Source: Escherichia phage EC148. Taken from it: 64,000 nucleotides of DNA. The notes below the pieces were generated by a model. It was not told the origin of the DNA, ran no database searches, and saw only the letters and a list, made by a program, of their open reading frames with translations. The stretch lies in the sequence record NC_106721.1. The stretch is one strand, 5' to 3'. How positions within the stretch are numbered: the stretch's first letter is position 1; each line of letters starts with the position of its first letter. Of this stretch, positions 3,582-32,915 are shown piece after piece. The translations under genes and the position numbers were made by a program.

Positions 3582-3989
3582 TTATTCGCCTGCGGCTTGT
3601 TTTACTTCATCGGCAACGCCTAACAATTGCGCTACTGCGTCCAGCGTTTCAAGTTTTGCACTTTCAAGGCTTGCCAGATCATCGGCATCTTTGATAATGC
3701 CGGAATCGATAGCGTGTTTTGCAATAACGCGTACATAATGAGCTTTGCGGATTGAACTACCGCCGCCAACTTTGCGAGGCTTATCGCTTTTTTGATATGC
3801 TTTTGCGCTGGTCAATTTTGACCGAACGGATACGGGAGAAGCCGCGCCCACTGCTTTTGCAATCTCTTTTAAACCGTCGCTATTTGCGAAATCTAAACCG
3901 TTTTCATTAATTAACTGTTGATACATGGAAACAGCTTTCTGAGTGTTTTCTTCATTCCATGCGAATTTTGCGATTTTAGCGTTAGTCAT
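3582..3989 (-). CDS. A2: A2-like pre-early protein
   Basis: 135 aa ORF downstream of A1 with the same conserved upstream leader motif as dmp and A1; size and position fit T5 A2. Confidence 0.45.
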   Translation of the reverse strand: MTNAKIAKFAWNEENTQKAVSMYQQLINENGLDFANSDGLKEIAKAVGAASPVSVRSKLTSAKAYQKSDKPRKVGGGSSIRKAHYVRVIAKHAIDSGIIKDADDLASLESAKLETLDAVAQLLGVADEVKQAAGE

Positions 3990-4085
3990 GATGTAACTCC
4001 TATTAGTTTAATTTAAGGGATTAGATTAACTTAATGTTAATCGTTATATCCCCCTGAAATAAGGGGATATAAAGTTAACACTAAT

Positions 4086-4337
4086 TTACAATACAGCTTC
4101 CCATTTTTCGTTGCGTTGAACAACCTTTACAACATCGCCGGATTTAACGCGAACGCTAAAAACGGGCTTGCCGTTGTTACTACGTTCATTTTCAGCGTAT
4201 ACCGCGTCGATTGTATCGAACGGCATAAGCGCCGCACCTTTAATACGTTCGGCCTTTCCGGTTAATTCATCCGTTTTAGTAACGAAAGGAATGAAGACGG
4301 ATTGACCAACTTTCGGCGCGGTAATAACGTTTTGCAT
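4086..4337 (-). CDS. hypothetical protein
   Basis: 83 aa ORF, co-directional pre-early block. Confidence 0.4.
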   Translation of the reverse strand: MQNVITAPKVGQSVFIPFVTKTDELTGKAERIKGAALMPFDTIDAVYAENERSNNGKPVFSVRVKSGDVVKVVQRNEKWEAVL

Positions 4338-5218
4338 AATATAAACTCCTAGTTATTTGGGGATTGTTCCGCATTACCTGCTAGAAAGTAACAGCAGGTA
4401 ATAAGTAACAATCCGCTCGCCAATATAATCAATTTTAAAGAACTCCACGTAGGCCGCTATATCCCGTTAGGGGGCGGGATGCATTATGGTAAGCACCGAC
4501 CGTCAAATTTTATCAAGTTATCGCTCTTATCGAACTGGGTACATCTTAAAACCTATCGGCTAGGTTGTCAAACAATTTTTTGCAATTTTTTATGATTTTC
4601 TTTTAGGTCAATCATAATATTTCGCCAGATCATTTCCAGACCTTGCTGGCGACCTTTCTTGTACTGCGTGAATCTATATCTTACTGATCTTTGAGCTACT
4701 GTCAACAAATTTTTTGTTTTGCTATCTAGTGCCTTAATAGGCTTGCCAGTGATCAAAAGCGTTTGTTTCATATCGTCGATTCCTTATAATGAATAAGTTT
4801 ACCGCCGATAGGCTTTAAGATGTACCCAATTTTTAAAGAGCGTGGCGGTAAACTTCCCGCCGTGTAGTTCGTCATTGCCGCCCTACGAGATAAATAATAG
4901 GGGATTCCCGAAAATGGCGCAACCTTATTTTTGTAAAGAAATGTAAAGGTAAAACTCACCGGACACCGTGCGGCGACGGCCTAAAATTAAAAGAAACGGG
5001 CGCGCGAATACCACAAAATAAAGCAAATAGGCAAGTAATTTTTTCATTTATATTTGCTTTGCCCTACTTGACAAAATCTAAAAAGCTCGTGGTAATGATA
5101 AACGGCTTATCCCCTTATGATGGGATGGCTAAAAACTTTATTGCGTTCTGGAGCGTTTTAGGCGCATTCTAGCCTTGTTGATAACTTATCCCCAAAAGCA
5201 AAAATGAAATTTTCCTAG

Positions 5219-20884: not shown

Positions 20885-21298
20885 TTAAACTAGTTCGACA
20901 TGACCGCCATCATAGGTACCACGTTTTATTTCGTCGTGATAATCTCCCGAAGCATTCCAATCAGCACCAAAACGAAGTTTAATGCCTAGTTCTTTACCCG
21001 CTTGTTCAAAAGCCTTTTTAACTGCCCAAAATGCTTCTAAATCATTCCAATCAATTTTGCCATTAATGTATGGAGCAAAATCAAGGGCATCCCCAGTAAT
21101 ATGCTTGCTTTTACTAGGATCTTTTAAAAATGAAGTACCATTAGCAATATTCTGGGCACTTTGTGCTACTGTACGAATACCCTGTACGATCGTGAAATCA
21201 TATGGAGATAATTCTAAAGCTCTACGAGCTACTTTTTGTAGCTCTGGCTTAACGGTAGCTAATTGTTTTTCGCTATTTTTACCAAATTTAAAACTCAT
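20885..21298 (-). CDS. lys: endolysin, L-alanyl-D-glutamate peptidase (M15 family)
   Basis: 137 aa; H...D...H zinc-peptidase pattern (SKHITGD ... DGGHVEL); from memory the sequence looks near-identical to the T5 endolysin. Confidence 0.8.
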   Translation of the reverse strand: MSFKFGKNSEKQLATVKPELQKVARRALELSPYDFTIVQGIRTVAQSAQNIANGTSFLKDPSKSKHITGDALDFAPYINGKIDWNDLEAFWAVKKAFEQAGKELGIKLRFGADWNASGDYHDEIKRGTYDGGHVELV

Positions 21299-21951
21299 AT
21301 TGATCTACCTAAAGATCTCTGTTGTGGGGAACAGAGCTTTGTTAAATATTCCTTAAATTTCTCAGAATCGGCTGCATCTACAGGATTATCTTTCCAAGCA
21401 ATACCAATATATCCAGCATAGATATTGTTTAGATTGAAATATGGACAAGTGTATATGTAATTAAAAGTAACGTTCTTAAACGCAGGTATATTTAACCCCG
21501 TATATTTATTTACTCTTACACTTAAATCCGATGCGTAGTTAAAGCCCTCTAAGTGACGTCTGTATAGCTCAGACGTTTTATTTACTGCTTTATCGGCCAA
21601 GTCAGCCCTATCTAATTGCGCATTGCTTTCCCATGCAATAATGTTAGAATAATCATTAATGGCATCGGGTTTATACTTGACTACAAAAACAGCATCCGCA
21701 CCCGTTTGAGAAAAGAGTACCATGCTCTTTTCTCTAGCTACATTAGGAAAGTTATCTATCCTTTGAGTTTGAACATCCTGTAGAACCGCAGACGTGGAGA
21801 AAGTCTTTAAGAATGACATCACCTCGCTAGTATTACTAACAAATAAGAAAATAATGACAGCAACTAAGATAGTTAGCAGACGTTTAAGAAGCGATGCTGG
21901 ATCTTTCGCTTCTTGGAGCAGTACCGTTAATAATTGTAAGAACTTTTCCAA
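21295..21951 (-). CDS. hol: holin
   Basis: 218 aa with N-terminal TM helix, immediately upstream of and overlapping the endolysin gene. Confidence 0.6.
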   Translation of the reverse strand: MEKFLQLLTVLLQEAKDPASLLKRLLTILVAVIIFLFVSNTSEVMSFLKTFSTSAVLQDVQTQRIDNFPNVAREKSMVLFSQTGADAVFVVKYKPDAINDYSNIIAWESNAQLDRADLADKAVNKTSELYRRHLEGFNYASDLSVRVNKYTGLNIPAFKNVTFNYIYTCPYFNLNNIYAGYIGIAWKDNPVDAADSEKFKEYLTKLCSPQQRSLGRSI

Positions 21952-22719: not shown

Positions 22720-23472
22720 TTATCCAACTAGTGGTTCTAGCTCTAAGTCACAGAAGTTATAAACTTCTAGTTTAAGGTTATTGATACCATCGAATTTATT
22801 AACTAATTCGTGAGTAATATATTTTGCAGGAATACCACTTTCAGATGGATGATCTGATTTAATAGTGAACTTCTGCTCAGCGGGTACTACATTTACTATC
22901 AAAGAATCCATATCTAAATGGTTTGTTTCTCTGAGTAACTCTCCTTCATTGGGGAATCTAACATCTGTTATTACGGCGACATCTGGGTCGTCTTTAGCGA
23001 TGGATTGCTCCAGAATTATGAGCCAAATGCGTTCATGCACCAGCTGCCTTCCTAGCTCTGTCCCTACGAGCTGTAACATTTTTCTCGGAGAAATAAATAA
23101 GCTATAAAGACCGTCTTCTTTATTCTCTGATATAAGTTGTTGAGGATTAAGATATTTTTCCTCAAAAATAGGCCAAACGTACGAGAAGTCTTCAAACTTA
23201 TCGATACCGTACTTAAACCACACATCCCTGGCTCGTTCCAACTGAGATTGTGTGACCGTAAACCATTGGTCAATCTCTTTTCCCCTGCGCTCTCCTAGAA
23301 ACTCTGGAGTTACACCGAGGATTACGGATGCAAGTTCATAAACGGGCTTAGCAAAACTATAACGACGAGATAAACACGTTGGATACGTGTCATTACACCA
23401 ATCGATAATTAATTTTGCAACGGTATCTTTTCCCGAACCAGCTTCACCATGTAAACCGACTAATACTGACAT
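22720..23472 (-). CDS. dnk: deoxynucleoside monophosphate kinase (P-loop)
   Basis: 250 aa; N-terminal Walker A GLHGEAGSGKDT. Confidence 0.55.
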   Translation of the reverse strand: MSVLVGLHGEAGSGKDTVAKLIIDWCNDTYPTCLSRRYSFAKPVYELASVILGVTPEFLGERRGKEIDQWFTVTQSQLERARDVWFKYGIDKFEDFSYVWPIFEEKYLNPQQLISENKEDGLYSLFISPRKMLQLVGTELGRQLVHERIWLIILEQSIAKDDPDVAVITDVRFPNEGELLRETNHLDMDSLIVNVVPAEQKFTIKSDHPSESGIPAKYITHELVNKFDGINNLKLEVYNFCDLELEPLVG

Positions 23473-23825
23473 TAATCTTTCCTATTGTTAATTGGTGGAT
23501 AGTAAACTAAGCAACGTTTTTCTTGTAAATCTTGACGATAGAAGCAGACCATACCAGTCAGTCGTGAAATGTAAGAGTAAACTGCTTCCTCACATTTTGC
23601 TTTTGCATTCCAATCTTTGTATGGTATAACAACTACTACGCCATCTTCTCCATTTGTAGCTAATTTCTTTTCAAACTTAAAGTCAAAGCTACAAGGTTGA
23701 AGTCCTTTAGGCCAGTCTACATGAGCTTGCTTTAACTCATGAGATGGCTCTGGTTTTATTTCTTCTGCACAGCCTGTGATTGTGATTGTGGCTGCGAGCA
23801 GTACTCCAAGTTTCCAGTTAAACAC
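23472..23825 (-). CDS. lipoprotein, outer-membrane spanin candidate
   Basis: 117 aa; signal peptide plus lipobox ITGC; overlaps upstream membrane protein gene. Confidence 0.45.
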   Translation of the reverse strand: MFNWKLGVLLAATITITGCAEEIKPEPSHELKQAHVDWPKGLQPCSFDFKFEKKLATNGEDGVVVVIPYKDWNAKAKCEEAVYSYISRLTGMVCFYRQDLQEKRCLVYYPPINNRKD

Positions 23826-24205
23826 GCTAATCTTTCCTCGAACTCTTTATTCTGCTTTTTAGCAATCAATGTTACCAATCCAGGTTTTGCAGCGATAACA
23901 TCTTGACGACTAAGAGCTTTATCTAGCTGCTTAATCTTTTTGTCTAGATCTGCTTGAGAAATATTATTCATCGTGAAATACTGATTCATTCTAGTCTCAC
24001 GAAGTTCACTTTCAGCTTTCACCTTATTAAGGGAAGTCTCTAGAGAAGAGATCTTTTTAGTAGCTACTGCAAGATCTCCCGCTAAAGTCTCCACTTTATC
24101 TACTAAGTGATAAGCACCGAATCCGATGCCTATCGCTAGACCTGCTCCCAGGATATACCACTTACCGTGCCATATTCCTGAAAGAAGTTTTTGTATCAAA
24201 TCCAT
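23756..24205 (-). CDS. inner-membrane spanin candidate
   Basis: 149 aa; N-terminal TM helix then coiled-coil; 3' end overlaps the lipoprotein gene. Confidence 0.45.
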   Translation of the reverse strand: MDLIQKLLSGIWHGKWYILGAGLAIGIGFGAYHLVDKVETLAGDLAVATKKISSLETSLNKVKAESELRETRMNQYFTMNNISQADLDKKIKQLDKALSRQDVIAAKPGLVTLIAKKQNKEFEERLACLTGNLEYCSQPQSQSQAVQKK

Positions 24206-31833: not shown

Positions 31834-31912
31834 TGGTAGATCGCCTGGGACTCGAACCCAGAACCTTCCGATTAAAAGTCGGATGCTACTAAACCTATTG
31901 AGCTAGCGATCT
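31834..31912 (-). tRNA. tRNA-Lys (UUU)
   Basis: 79 nt; anticodon stem TCCGA/TCGGA, loop CTTTTAA. Confidence 0.6.
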
Positions 31913-32101
31913 ATTAGTAACCATTATACACTTCTTTAATAGAGTGGACTTTTAAGTAAGGGTGATTAGTACTAAACTCTACCATTACTTCATCCCAATT
32001 TTTACCATAATGAGCGAGTAAGGATTTTGATGTATTCTTACCTAACCGTTTGTCACTTACTACTAATCGAAATACTTTCATTTCGAAATCCTCTATTAAA
32101 A

Positions 32102-32179
32102 TGGAAGCGGGTGCAGGAATCGAACCTACCTCTTTCTAGCTTATGAGACTAGCGATCTCTACCAGAGATCTAACCCGCA
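32102..32179 (-). tRNA. tRNA, anticodon CAU (Met or Ile-lysidine)
   Basis: 78 nt; D-stem GATC/GATC, anticodon loop CTCATAA. Confidence 0.6.
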
Positions 32180-32185
32180 ATTGTT

Positions 32186-32261
32186 TGGTCAGTGCGGCAG
32201 GACTCGAACCTGCGACCCGAAGCATCCAAGGCTCCCACGCTACCAACTGCGCTACGCACTG
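32186..32261 (-). tRNA. tRNA-Pro (UGG)
   Basis: 76 nt; anticodon loop CTTGGAT; T-arm GCAGG-TTCGAGT-CCTGC. Confidence 0.6.
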
Positions 32262-32270
32262 TTAATTCTT

Positions 32271-32468
32271 TTATTGTGGAGGAATATTAATAATTCGTCC
32301 GTCTACACAATAAACGGTACTAGGAATTGTACTATATATGTAGAAATTCTTTATATTACTCTCTCCGCCACAGAAATTTTTAGCAAATTCATACTCTTTA
32401 TTAATGGTTGAGTCAAGTTTAAAACAACCAGTAAGTAGGAATACAGACAGCAGTAAAACTTTTTTCAT
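32271..32468 (-). CDS. small lipoprotein
   Basis: 65 aa; signal peptide with lipobox LLTGC; own promoter upstream. Confidence 0.5.
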   Translation of the reverse strand: MKKVLLLSVFLLTGCFKLDSTINKEYEFAKNFCGGESNIKNFYIYSTIPSTVYCVDGRIINIPPQ

Positions 32469-32500
32469 TTTGCTTTCCTTCTCAACACTTTATAAGGTAT

Positions 32501-32529
32501 ATTATACAGAGAATTAAGCATAATAGCAA
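32501..32529 (-). promoter_or_regulatory. early promoter, TTGCTA-17-TATAAT
   Basis: conserved cassette upstream of the lipoprotein gene. Confidence 0.55.
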
Positions 32530-32679
32530 ATGAATTTTTAATAAATTTACTTATTGTGTAGGCCACCTGGAGGCTACCAACCCCACGGCTGACAAAGAAG
32601 TTTGCGAGACCTCTCTTAAGTGCCAGAATAGACCCGCCGATCTATCGGAACCTACATAATAAGTAAACTTTATAGTGTC

Positions 32680-32799
32680 ATTCTAGACAGGACTCGAACC
32701 TGTTATCACTTGTGCGGACTTACGAGAACCATTCTTTCACTCGAATCGAACGAGCTTCTGCCCTCGCCAAGCTGGTTTCCCCATCAACCACGCTAGAAT
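32680..32799 (-). tRNA. atypical 120 nt tRNA-like element (two T-arm-like hairpins)
   Basis: terminal 7 bp acceptor-like pairing ATTCTAG/CTAGAAT, T-arm ACAGG-TTCGAGT-CCTGT plus internal CTCG-TTCGATT-CGAG. Confidence 0.25.
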
Positions 32800-32810
32800 G
32801 TTTGATTGTT

Positions 32811-32915
32811 TTCAGTGCAAGAGTCCGAGTCTTGGACACGACCGCTTCGCAAGTACATAGGCAGCTTATCATGAGTCAGCACTTCCGAATTGCTAGCTCC
32901 GTGTTCTGCACTGAA
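32811..32915 (-). ncRNA. structured RNA candidate closed by TCAGTGCA/TGCACTGA
   Basis: 8 bp long-range inverted repeat enclosing about 85 nt of GC-richer sequence; overlapping plus-strand ORF looks spurious. Confidence 0.25.

What the first reader, a model, noticed from the sequence alone, without database searches (positions are those of the whole stretch)
32271..32529. Small lipoprotein with its own promoter inside the tRNA cluster
A 65 aa lipoprotein (lipobox LLTGC) is expressed from a canonical early promoter. T5-type phages are known to use a small lipoprotein (Llp) to block their receptor, although that gene is usually encoded elsewhere in the genome. A second early lipoprotein could be an additional exclusion or envelope factor.
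Basis: partly seen in the sequence, partly recalled or inferred. Interest (0 to 1): 0.35.

Follow-up and report, generated by a model that had tools for sequence, protein, structure and literature searches.

The report
Uncharacterised small lipoprotein in T5-like phage
A T5-like phage carries a real, conserved 65-residue lipoprotein gene inserted between a strong early promoter and the tRNA genes that promoter normally drives. It is neither the phage's receptor-blocking lipoprotein nor the "spanin" that databases call it, and its envelope function is untested.

Summary
Window 32271..32468 (minus strand) encodes a 65-aa protein with a textbook lipoprotein signal (MKK, hydrophobic core, LTGC). 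A strong ribosome-binding site and a TTGCTA-17-TATAAT promoter lie upstream.

- **Promoter.** It is promoter P13a of the T5 and BF23 records. In BF23 and oldekolle it drives tRNA-Pro directly. Here a ~219-bp cassette (ribosome-binding site plus ORF) sits between promoter and tRNA.
- **Variable slot.** Reference T5 holds an unrelated 52-aa ORF annotated with two transmembrane domains. GEC_vB_N5 holds a homing endonuclease. About 13% of T5-like records carry the lipoprotein.
- **Real gene.** dN/dS is about 0.10. It belongs to an uncharacterised family: 38 cluster representatives, two invariant cysteines, motif WAxxFCG...VxCxDGRxxDIP.
- **Distribution.** The family occurs in T5-like, Seunavirus and 7-11-like phages.
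- **Fold.** One helix plus three strands, with no PDB match.
- **Not Llp.** The matching phage record has its own receptor-blocking lipoprotein beside its receptor-binding protein gene.
- **Not a spanin.** A complete spanin pair lies at 23472..24205. Many homologues carry inner-membrane-type anchors.
- **Closest known.** A weak resemblance to lambda Bor is the only lead.

Most likely it is an accessory periplasmic envelope factor of the exclusion type. The function is inferred only.

The parts
32501..32529 (-). Sigma-70 promoter P13a: -35 TTGCTA (32529..32524), 17-nt spacer, -10 TATAAT (32506..32501). An A/T-rich stretch lies just upstream (32530..32552).
   Evidence: The scan is. The same sequence is annotated 'promoter P13a' in T5 NC_005859 and BF23 AJ604530. 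It is conserved in Tequintavirus and Epseptimavirus.
32473..32483 (-). Ribosome-binding site GAGAAGGAAAG, 4 nt upstream of the ATG (7 nt from the AAGGA core).
   Evidence: Read from the sequence. The same ribosome-binding site precedes the unrelated ORF T5.066 in reference T5.
32271..32468 (-). Coding sequence of the 65-aa prolipoprotein, stop codon included.
   Evidence: ORF list. dN/dS is about 0.10 against Epseptimavirus orthologues. phrog_6073 matches at E 1.2e-28. The family has 38 cluster representatives.
32427..32468 (-). Signal peptide, residues 1-14: MKK, then the hydrophobic core VLLLSVFLL. The lipobox L-T-G-C is residues 12-15 (32424..32435). Cys15 (32424..32426) is the predicted lipidation site. 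The +2 residue is Phe, which implies outer-membrane sorting by the E. coli +2 rule.
   Evidence: Lipobox rule test. Family alignment. The +2 rule is established knowledge and was not tested here.
32274..32423 (-). Mature periplasmic domain, residues 16-65: one helix followed by a three-stranded sheet. The invariant cysteines are C33 (32370..32372) and C54 (32307..32309), predicted to form one disulfide. Motif: (W/F)AxxFCG...VxCxDGRxxDIP.
   Evidence: AF2 models have mean pLDDT 80 and 83, with blocks up to 98. C33 and C54 are invariant in 40 sequences.
32268..32486 (-). Approximate extent of the inserted cassette (ribosome-binding site plus ORF, about 219 bp) relative to phages with an empty slot.
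   Evidence: Four-way alignment of the window, BF23, oldekolle and reference T5.
32186..32261 (-). tRNA-Pro(UGG), which starts 9 nt after the stop codon and is co-transcribed from P13a.
   Evidence: ARAGORN and Rfam at 62.7 bits. No terminator lies between the ORF and the tRNA.
31834..32179 (-). Remainder of the same leftward gene string: tRNA-fMet (32102..32179), a 55-aa ORF (31914..32081) and tRNA-Lys (31834..31912).
   Evidence: That these belong to one transcription unit is inferred from the absence of a terminator and from the T5 and BF23 annotation.

Best explanation
**What it is (shown).** The gene encodes a small secreted lipoprotein. Its mature part is about 50 residues and 5.8 kDa: one helix, three strands and probably one disulfide between C33 and C54. 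The lipid-modified cysteine holds it at a membrane facing the periplasm. With Phe at +2, that membrane is inferred to be the inner leaflet of the outer membrane.

**How it is expressed (shown and inferred).** The gene is an optional, moron-like cassette. It is inserted as the first cistron behind the strong promoter P13a, which otherwise drives tRNA-Pro, tRNA-fMet and tRNA-Lys directly. It should therefore be made from the start of second-step gene expression, together with those tRNAs.

**What it does (inferred).** It most likely acts on the cell envelope of the infected cell as an accessory, non-essential factor. The most probable role is of the superinfection-exclusion or progeny-protection type: binding or blocking an envelope or periplasmic component that competing phages need. 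It does this by its own fold, not as a relative of Llp or Cor. It is not part of the lysis machinery.
For: - **Real and selected.** dN/dS is about 0.10, with dS about 0.8-0.9, against IrmaTschudi and MET_P1. Against EH3 the protein is 69% identical although synonymous sites are saturated.
- **Signal and expression elements.** The lipoprotein signal is clear. Promoter and ribosome-binding site are present.
- **Optional insert in a variable slot.** The slot is empty in BF23 and oldekolle. It holds the 52-aa T5.066, annotated with two transmembrane domains, in reference T5 and a homing endonuclease in GEC_vB_N5. The lipoprotein is present in 65 of 492 T5-like records. T5.066-like ORFs are in 113 records.
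- **Same slot in two genera.** It always lies 9 nt upstream of tRNA-Pro.
- **Spread of the family.** It occurs in unrelated virulent phage lineages, always among small accessory ORFs and never next to structural or lysis genes: PVP-SE1 gp211, a relative of phage 7-11, and others. Two pattern scans of 185,579 bacterial genomes found nothing.
- **Dispensable region.** The T5 tRNA region can be deleted, and this operon also carries the anti-PARIS tRNA-Lys. The neighbourhood is therefore an accessory and counter-defence one (PMC11464382).
- **Confident compact fold.** pLDDT is 87-98 over residues 21-60. Only about 3-5 residues separate the lipid anchor from the domain, so it sits at the membrane surface.
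- **Precedent.** T5 Llp is an early small lipoprotein that blocks FhuA (PMC9586334 and other papers listed).
Against: - There is no homology to any characterised exclusion protein. Llp, Cor, NCBIfam and PADLOC give only signal-peptide-level matches.
- No fold match exists in the PDB at E <= 0.001.
- The anchor is not conserved. Of 36 members with a lipobox, 12 have Asp at +2. Four of 40 have an uncleaved transmembrane anchor. This fits poorly with obligatory action at the outer membrane. It suggests instead a periplasmic or inner-membrane-facing target, or that tethering alone matters.
- The phage already has a cognate receptor-blocking lipoprotein.
- No experiment bears on this protein, and no paper in the searched library mentions it.
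Confidence: 0.4

Rival explanations
1. It is an o-spanin (Rz1-like outer-membrane lipoprotein) that completes lysis by fusing the inner and outer membranes together with an i-spanin. This is what PHROGs, Pharokka and RefSeq annotation say ('Rz-like spanin').
For: phrog_6073, labelled 'Rz-like spanin', matches at E 1.2e-28. Many records carry that label. It is a small lipoprotein with non-Asp +2 and extra cysteines, which superficially resembles an o-spanin.
Against: - The window already has a complete overlapping spanin pair. The i-spanin lies at 23756..24205 and the o-spanin at 23472..23825 (phrog_739 and phrog_812, PseT.3/PseT.2-like), 1.5 kb from the holin and endolysin genes.
- The curated spanin census (PMC6139136 supplement) places the spanins of Spc35 and FFH1 at 22.4-23.6 kb and those of PVP-SE1 at 60.6-61.3 kb. 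None of these is the homologue of this protein, which lies at 31.5 kb, 32.0 kb and 130.9 kb respectively.
- No gene for a type-II membrane protein with a coiled coil lies next to it in any of five contexts.
- Twelve homologues have Asp at +2 and four have a transmembrane anchor. Neither is compatible with an outer-membrane partner.
- The slot is empty in BF23 and in most T5-like phages.
- hhalign scores of the mature domain against Rz1 (5.7) and the T5 o-spanin (11.2) lie within the shuffle range (mean 8.3, maximum 17.3).
Confidence: 0.05
2. It is a counter-defence or host-takeover factor rather than an exclusion factor. In this view the membrane-tethered periplasmic domain neutralises a host or prophage envelope-located component. 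Candidates are an envelope stress sensor, a periplasmic protease or hydrolase, or a membrane-bound abortive-infection or exclusion protein. Neutralising it would let infection proceed.
For: - It sits in an operon and region rich in counter-defence functions: the anti-PARIS tRNA-Lys and the retron inhibitor Rad described nearby in T5 (PMC10644984).
- Its distribution is patchy and it exchanges with other small membrane proteins.
- Anchor variability between outer-membrane, inner-membrane and transmembrane types argues for a periplasmic or inner-membrane-facing target rather than an outer-membrane receptor.
- The family is confined to virulent phages in the scans done.
Against: No similarity to any known anti-defence protein or defence component was found. 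No target can be named. The evidence does not discriminate this from exclusion.
Confidence: 0.25
3. It is a miniature relative of the lambda Bor/Iss outer-membrane lipoproteins and shares their still undefined surface-protective activity.
For: hhalign of the family profile against lambda Bor gives probability 92% with signal peptides included. With mature parts only, it gives probability 57% and score 24.1. The alignment pairs AxxFCGGxxNI with AAKICGGAENV and both (V)YC motifs, so that the two invariant cysteines align with the two non-lipid cysteines of Bor. Of 200 shuffles of Bor, none reached that score (mean 8.3, sd 2.0, maximum 17.3).
Against: Only 27 columns align, and the alignment needs a 16-residue gap. 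Pfam Lambda_Bor (PF06291) is not hit by any of 40 members at E <= 1, although Bor itself scores 1.9e-30. The N-terminal half of Bor is absent. All Bor homologues in the phage collection are at least 90% identical, so no Bor profile could be built. Bor is a lysogenic-conversion gene, whereas this family was seen only in virulent phages.
Confidence: 0.1
4. The protein itself has no function. In this view the ORF is a leader sequence whose translation or RNA merely modulates expression or processing of the downstream tRNAs.
For: It lies between a tRNA-operon promoter and tRNA-Pro, with only 9 nt of spacer. The operon works without it in BF23.
Against: The amino-acid sequence is under strong purifying selection, with dN/dS about 0.10. 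Homologues with the same invariant cysteines and motif occur in unrelated genomic contexts without adjacent tRNAs. The predicted fold is confident.
Confidence: 0.03

Closest known systems
T5 Llp and the receptor-blocking lipoproteins of T5-like phages (functional analogues: Cor of phi80/N15)
   Same: A small lipoprotein of 60-90 aa in a T5-like phage. It is made from a sigma-70 promoter early in infection. It has non-Asp +2, which predicts outer-membrane sorting, and extra cysteines.
   Different: No sequence similarity. It is not next to the receptor-binding protein gene, and the phage has a separate cognate gene there. The family shows variable membrane anchoring. No receptor link is known.
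Lambda Bor / Iss (Pfam PF06291)
   Same: A phage lipoprotein with an A-x-x-(I/F)-C-G-G-x-x-N-(V/I) motif and a C-terminal (V)YC. The hhalign score is well above shuffles.
   Different: It is half the size and lacks the N-terminal half and the hydrophobic insert of Bor. It does not hit the Pfam model. It occurs in virulent rather than temperate phages. Homology is unproven.
o-spanins (lambda Rz1; T4 PseT.2 / T5.044 class)
   Same: A small phage lipoprotein with outer-membrane-type +2. Databases label it 'Rz-like spanin'.
   Different: It has no i-spanin partner and is not in the lysis cassette. A true spanin pair is present elsewhere. Homologues carry inner-membrane anchors. The gene is dispensable and patchily distributed.
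T5.066 and other small membrane-protein ORFs of the T5 tRNA region
   Same: It occupies exactly the same slot, behind the same promoter P13a and the same ribosome-binding site. It is small, envelope-targeted and of unknown function.
   Different: The sequences are unrelated. T5.066 is annotated with two transmembrane domains and has no lipobox.

Membership tests
Bacterial-type lipoprotein (SPase II substrate) | An N-terminal signal peptide with a positively charged n-region and a hydrophobic core. It ends in the lipobox [LVI][ASTVI][GAS]C, with the Cys at positions 15-35. | tested here: met
   The sequence is MKK-VLLLSVFLL-TGC with Cys15. It passes the PROSITE-like rule (the rule is from memory). 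Only 2 credible genes in the window pass it. The lipobox Cys is conserved in at least 90% of 40 family members.
Bacterial-type lipoprotein (SPase II substrate) | Actual diacylglyceryl modification and globomycin-sensitive cleavage. | not testable with these tools
   This needs labelling or processing experiments.
o-spanin (Rz1-like) | Encoded embedded in, overlapping or adjacent to a cognate i-spanin gene, normally in or near the lysis cassette. | tested here: not met
   The neighbours are tRNAs, stable RNAs and soluble small ORFs. The phage's i-spanin at 23756..24205 overlaps a different o-spanin. The curated census assigns other genes in Spc35, FFH1 and PVP-SE1.
o-spanin (Rz1-like) | Obligatory outer-membrane anchoring (no Lol-avoidance signal) across the family. 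| tested here: not met
   The +2 residue is Phe in the T5-like clade. However, 12 of 36 lipobox-bearing homologues have Asp at +2, and 4 of 40 have an uncleaved transmembrane anchor.
o-spanin (Rz1-like) | Sequence relationship to a characterised o-spanin family. | tested here: not met
   hhalign scores of the mature domain against Rz1 (5.7) and T5.044 (11.2) lie within the shuffle range (mean 8.3, maximum 17.3). The phrog_6073 label has no traceable experimental basis.
Llp / Cor receptor-blocking lipoproteins | Homology to Llp or Cor. | tested here: not met
   BLASTP gives no alignment. hhalign aligns only the signal peptide, and the mature-part score is 8.0. Matches to NCBIfam Cor and PHROG Cor cover the signal peptide only.
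Llp / Cor receptor-blocking lipoproteins | Gene divergently adjacent to the receptor-binding protein gene. | tested here: not met
   That position in LR597659 (107573..107839) holds a different 88-aa lipoprotein annotated 'receptor-blocking protein'.
Llp / Cor receptor-blocking lipoproteins | Blocks adsorption or infection through an outer-membrane receptor when expressed alone. | not testable with these tools
   This needs plating and adsorption assays.
Bor / Iss (PF06291) | Match to the Pfam Lambda_Bor model. | tested here: not met
   None of 40 members hit it at E <= 1. Bor itself scores 1.9e-30.
Bor / Iss (PF06291) | Profile-level similarity of the mature domains, including both conserved cysteines. 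| tested here: inconclusive
   hhalign gives probability 57% and score 24.1 over 27 columns. None of 200 shuffles reached it. No diverse Bor profile was available.

The most novel reading that the evidence does not exclude
This would be the T5-like representative of an unrecognised family of phage periplasmic mini-proteins, which I call the 'FCG...C-DGR' family. Each has about 45 folded residues, one helix, three strands and one invariant disulfide, and is tethered by a lipid or a transmembrane anchor. The family has spread as a solo cassette among unrelated virulent enterobacterial phages: Demerecviridae, Seunavirus and 7-11-like phages. In the novel reading it carries out a mechanism not yet described, either receptor-independent superinfection exclusion or neutralisation of an envelope-based host defence. 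It may also be an ancient offshoot of Bor/Iss, which would give that old family its first mechanistic handle.
Probability: 0.3. Interest if true: 0.55.

Novelty: new variant of a known kind. Interest (0 to 1): 0.3.

Why it matters
- **Annotation.** It corrects a widely propagated label. 'Rz-like spanin' (phrog_6073) is being stamped on this gene in dozens of T5-like and Seunavirus genomes, many of them candidates for therapy or biocontrol.
- **A defined family.** The work defines a conserved, structurally compact and experimentally tractable family of phage envelope proteins. It comes with clear handles: Cys15 and the C33-C54 pair.
- **A hot-swap slot.** Different small envelope proteins or a homing endonuclease are exchanged behind promoter P13a, upstream of tRNA-Pro. 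The operon also carries the anti-PARIS tRNA-Lys.
- **If it excludes phages.** T5-like phages would then carry a second, receptor-independent layer of lytic conversion. That is relevant to the design of phage cocktails.

Otherwise it is one more small accessory gene of unknown function.

Tried and rejected
- **Family libraries.** Pfam, NCBIfam and PADLOC scans of the protein and of 40 family members gave only matches at the level of the lipoprotein signal peptide.
- **PDB sequence search.** A single-sequence search and a profile search found nothing meaningful.
- **Foldseek.** Two AF2 models, full-length and mature, gave no PDB hit at E <= 0.001. BFVD returned only family members.
- **Spanin reading.** Rejected for the reasons listed under rival explanations.
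- **Conserved partner gene.** The upstream genes in PVP-SE1, L006, L008 and L009 overlap the start codon, but on reading they show no evident relationship to each other and none is i-spanin-like.
- **Bor profile.** It could not be built, because all phage-collection homologues are at least 90% identical.
- **Census of the slot in IMG/VR by exact promoter pattern.** It returned only T5 itself.
- **Bacterial-genome scans.** Two scans found no relatives. Both were pattern-limited, so they would detect only close relatives.
- **IMG/VR scan with the central subfamily.** It gave one locus.
- **Megablast of L006 against the phage collection.** No match.
- **Literature.** Searches found no paper dealing with this gene.
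- **Proline content.** It was considered as an argument against a spanin role and dropped, because T5's own o-spanin is not proline-rich either.
- **'Early promoter' as an anti-lysis argument.** It was down-weighted, because the T5 lysis genes lie in the same leftward early region.

Full report
**Identity of the window.** The 1.6 kb around the finding is 100% identical to Escherichia phage T5_ev212 (LR597659). It is 95-99.9% identical to many Tequintavirus isolates. ARAGORN finds 21 tRNA genes on the minus strand between 28.5 and 39.9 kb. The finding therefore lies inside the tRNA cluster of a T5-like phage.

**Observation check.**
- The ORF runs 32271..32468 on the minus strand and encodes MKKVLLLSVFLLTGCFKLDSTINKEYEFAKNFCGGESNIKNFYIYSTIPSTVYCVDGRIINIPPQ.
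- The N-terminus has two lysines, a nine-residue hydrophobic core and the lipobox L-T-G-C with Cys15. A PROSITE-style lipobox rule is passed by only 6 of 1109 start/ORF combinations in the window. Only two of these are credible genes: this one and the o-spanin.
- A TTGCTA-17-TATAAT promoter lies at 32529..32501. The ribosome-binding site GAGAAGGAAAG lies 4 nt before the ATG (7 nt from its AAGGA core).
- The consensus scan is not by itself above chance. However, the same sequence is annotated as promoter P13a in the T5 reference and in the BF23 tRNA-region record.
- The promoter is almost invariant between Tequintavirus and Epseptimavirus, whereas synonymous sites of the ORF are near saturation.

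**The promoter is not the ORF's own.**
- In BF23 and in Salmonella phage oldekolle, P13a is followed within about 20 nt by tRNA-Pro, then tRNA-fMet.
- In the window, a cassette of about 219 bp (ribosome-binding site plus ORF) is inserted between them. The stop codon lies 9 nt from tRNA-Pro, with no terminator.
- In reference T5, the same promoter and the same ribosome-binding site precede an unrelated 52-aa ORF, T5.066, annotated with two transmembrane domains. It is followed by a divergent tRNA-Pro allele.
- In GEC_vB_N5 the slot holds a homing endonuclease.
- Of 492 records matching this 600-bp stretch, 65 carry the lipoprotein cassette. T5.066-like ORFs occur in 113 records.
- In three Epseptimavirus genomes the lipoprotein occupies the identical position.
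- The gene is thus an optional leader cistron of a tRNA operon. That operon ends with tRNA-Lys, the tRNA shown in T5 to neutralise PARIS. The same paper uses viable T5 mutants with deletions in this region (PMC11464382).

**It is a real protein.** The window compared with IrmaTschudi or MET_P1 gives dN about 0.08, dS about 0.8-0.9 and dN/dS about 0.10. Against EH3, synonymous sites are saturated while the protein stays 69% identical.

**It belongs to an uncharacterised family.**
- An exhaustive profile search of 1.84 billion cluster representatives found 38 with E <= 1e-3 and 17 with E <= 1e-10.
- The 40-sequence alignment has two invariant residues, C33 and C54. It shows the motif (W/F)AxxFCG...VxCxDGRxxDIP.
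- AlphaFold2 gives a confident small fold: a helix ending at C33, then three strands, with C54 at the end of the second. Mean pLDDT is 80-83, and the best blocks reach 98.
- Foldseek finds no PDB match at E <= 0.001 with either model. In BFVD it finds only family members.

**Where the family occurs.**
- Members occur in T5-like phages.
- They occur in Seunavirus myophages. PVP-SE1 gp211 is 46% identical.
- One lies in a contig related to podophage 7-11.
- Others lie in unidentified phage contigs.
- In every case the gene sits in a string of small accessory ORFs, and the flanking genes are not conserved.
- Two pattern-limited scans of 185,579 bacterial genomes found none.

**It is not Llp.** LR597659 has its own 88-aa 'receptor-blocking protein' lipoprotein, divergent from the receptor-binding protein gene at 107.5 kb and outside the window. 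The present protein shows no similarity to T5 Llp.

**It is not a spanin, despite the database label.**
- phrog_6073 is labelled 'Rz-like spanin', and the label appears in many records.
- The window has a canonical overlapping spanin pair. The i-spanin lies at 23756..24205, with an N-terminal transmembrane domain and a coiled coil. The o-spanin lies at 23472..23825, with lipobox ITGC. They match phrog_739 and phrog_812 and correspond to T5.045 and T5.044, and they lie near the holin and endolysin genes.
- The curated spanin census (PMC6139136) lists exactly those loci for Spc35 and FFH1. For PVP-SE1 it lists a pair at 60.6-61.3 kb, not gp211.
- No i-spanin-like gene adjoins any family member examined.
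- Of 36 lipobox-bearing members, 12 have Asp at +2, which is the enterobacterial inner-membrane retention signal. Two of these come from Salmonella phages closely related to PVP-SE1. Four members replace the lipobox with an uncleaved transmembrane anchor.
- An outer-membrane partner in a membrane-spanning complex could not tolerate such anchors.

**A weak lead to Bor.**
- Profile against sequence, hhalign aligns the family's AxxFCGGxxNI...VYC with Bor's AAKICGGAENV...VYC.
- Probability is 92% with signal peptides included. It is 57%, with score 24.1, on mature parts only.
- None of 200 shuffles of Bor reached that score (mean 8.3, sd 2.0, maximum 17.3). Llp, Rz1 and the T5 o-spanin score within the shuffle range.
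- Pfam Lambda_Bor is not hit by any member, and no diverse Bor profile could be assembled.
- I treat this as unproven.

**Mechanism.**
- *Shown:* the gene is real, selected and optional. Its product carries a lipoprotein export signal and a compact domain with a conserved cysteine pair. It is placed directly behind a strong sigma-70 promoter at the head of a tRNA operon.
[quoted passage not shown] It is made early and acts on an envelope or periplasmic component.
- *Best guess (about 0.4):* an accessory exclusion or progeny-protection factor that works by a fold unrelated to Llp and Cor.
- *Main rival (about 0.25):* it neutralises an envelope-located host or prophage function. The family's indifference to which membrane anchors it fits that rival slightly better than it fits a strict outer-membrane receptor plug.
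- *Unlikely:* a spanin role (0.05), Bor-like activity (0.1) or a mere leader ORF (0.03).

**Novelty and score.** The gene is present in public records as 'hypothetical', 'lipoprotein' or, wrongly, 'Rz-like spanin'. No paper in the searched library addresses it. It is a new, unstudied sequence and fold family within a familiar kind of thing, the small phage-encoded envelope lipoproteins. Interest is modest (0.3). The useful outputs are the corrected annotation, the defined family and motif, the swap-slot architecture and a set of simple decisive experiments.

Noticed in passing
window 32561..32800 (minus strand): The stretch upstream of P13a corresponds to the 'rnaIV' and 'rna2' stable RNAs annotated in T5 and BF23, of unknown function, one of them tRNA-like. 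ARAGORN does not call them, and no Rfam family matches at E <= 0.1.
   Followed up: partly
window 32186..32261 (tRNA-Pro): This tRNA-Pro(UGG) allele is 95-97% identical to the tRNA-Pro of Vequintavirinae myophages (arall, AV123, ECGD1, PVP-SE1). It is strongly divergent from the tRNA-Pro of reference T5. The allele is also the one in BF23 and oldekolle. This suggests tRNA exchange across phage families. Seunavirus members of the same subfamily also carry the lipoprotein family.
   Followed up: partly
window 23472..24205 (minus strand): This is the canonical overlapping two-component spanin. The i-spanin is 149 aa (23756..24205) and the o-spanin 117 aa (23472..23825), homologous to T5.045 and T5.044. 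The holin (21295..21951) and endolysin (20885..21298) genes lie 1.5 kb away.
   Followed up: yes
window 32465..32566 (minus strand): A 33-aa GTG-initiated ORF, annotated as a CDS in Pharokka-annotated relatives, lies exactly on promoter P13a and its upstream A/T tract. Its conservation is explained by the promoter, so it is probably a spurious gene call.
   Followed up: partly
window 31834..31912 (tRNA-Lys), same operon: The last tRNA of the P13a gene string corresponds by position and anticodon to T5 tRNA-Lys(UUU). That tRNA was shown experimentally to neutralise the PARIS defence system. The rescuing T5 fragment 31885-32870 is this operon (PMC11464382).
   Followed up: partly
L014 (Salmonella phage GEC_vB_N5) 533..1108: In this phage the P13a slot holds a 191-aa homing endonuclease, and no tRNA-Pro is annotated there. 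This fits nuclease-mediated cassette exchange at this site.
   Followed up: no
L004 (PVP-SE1) 3630..4004 and 4225..4872: The Seunavirus homologue gp211 is flanked by two genes. Upstream is a Cys-rich 124-aa protein (gp212) whose stop overlaps the start of gp211. Downstream is a 215-aa protein (gp210), annotated with two transmembrane domains and having a charged, probably helical C-terminus. Neither resembles an i-spanin, and their functions are unknown.
   Followed up: partly
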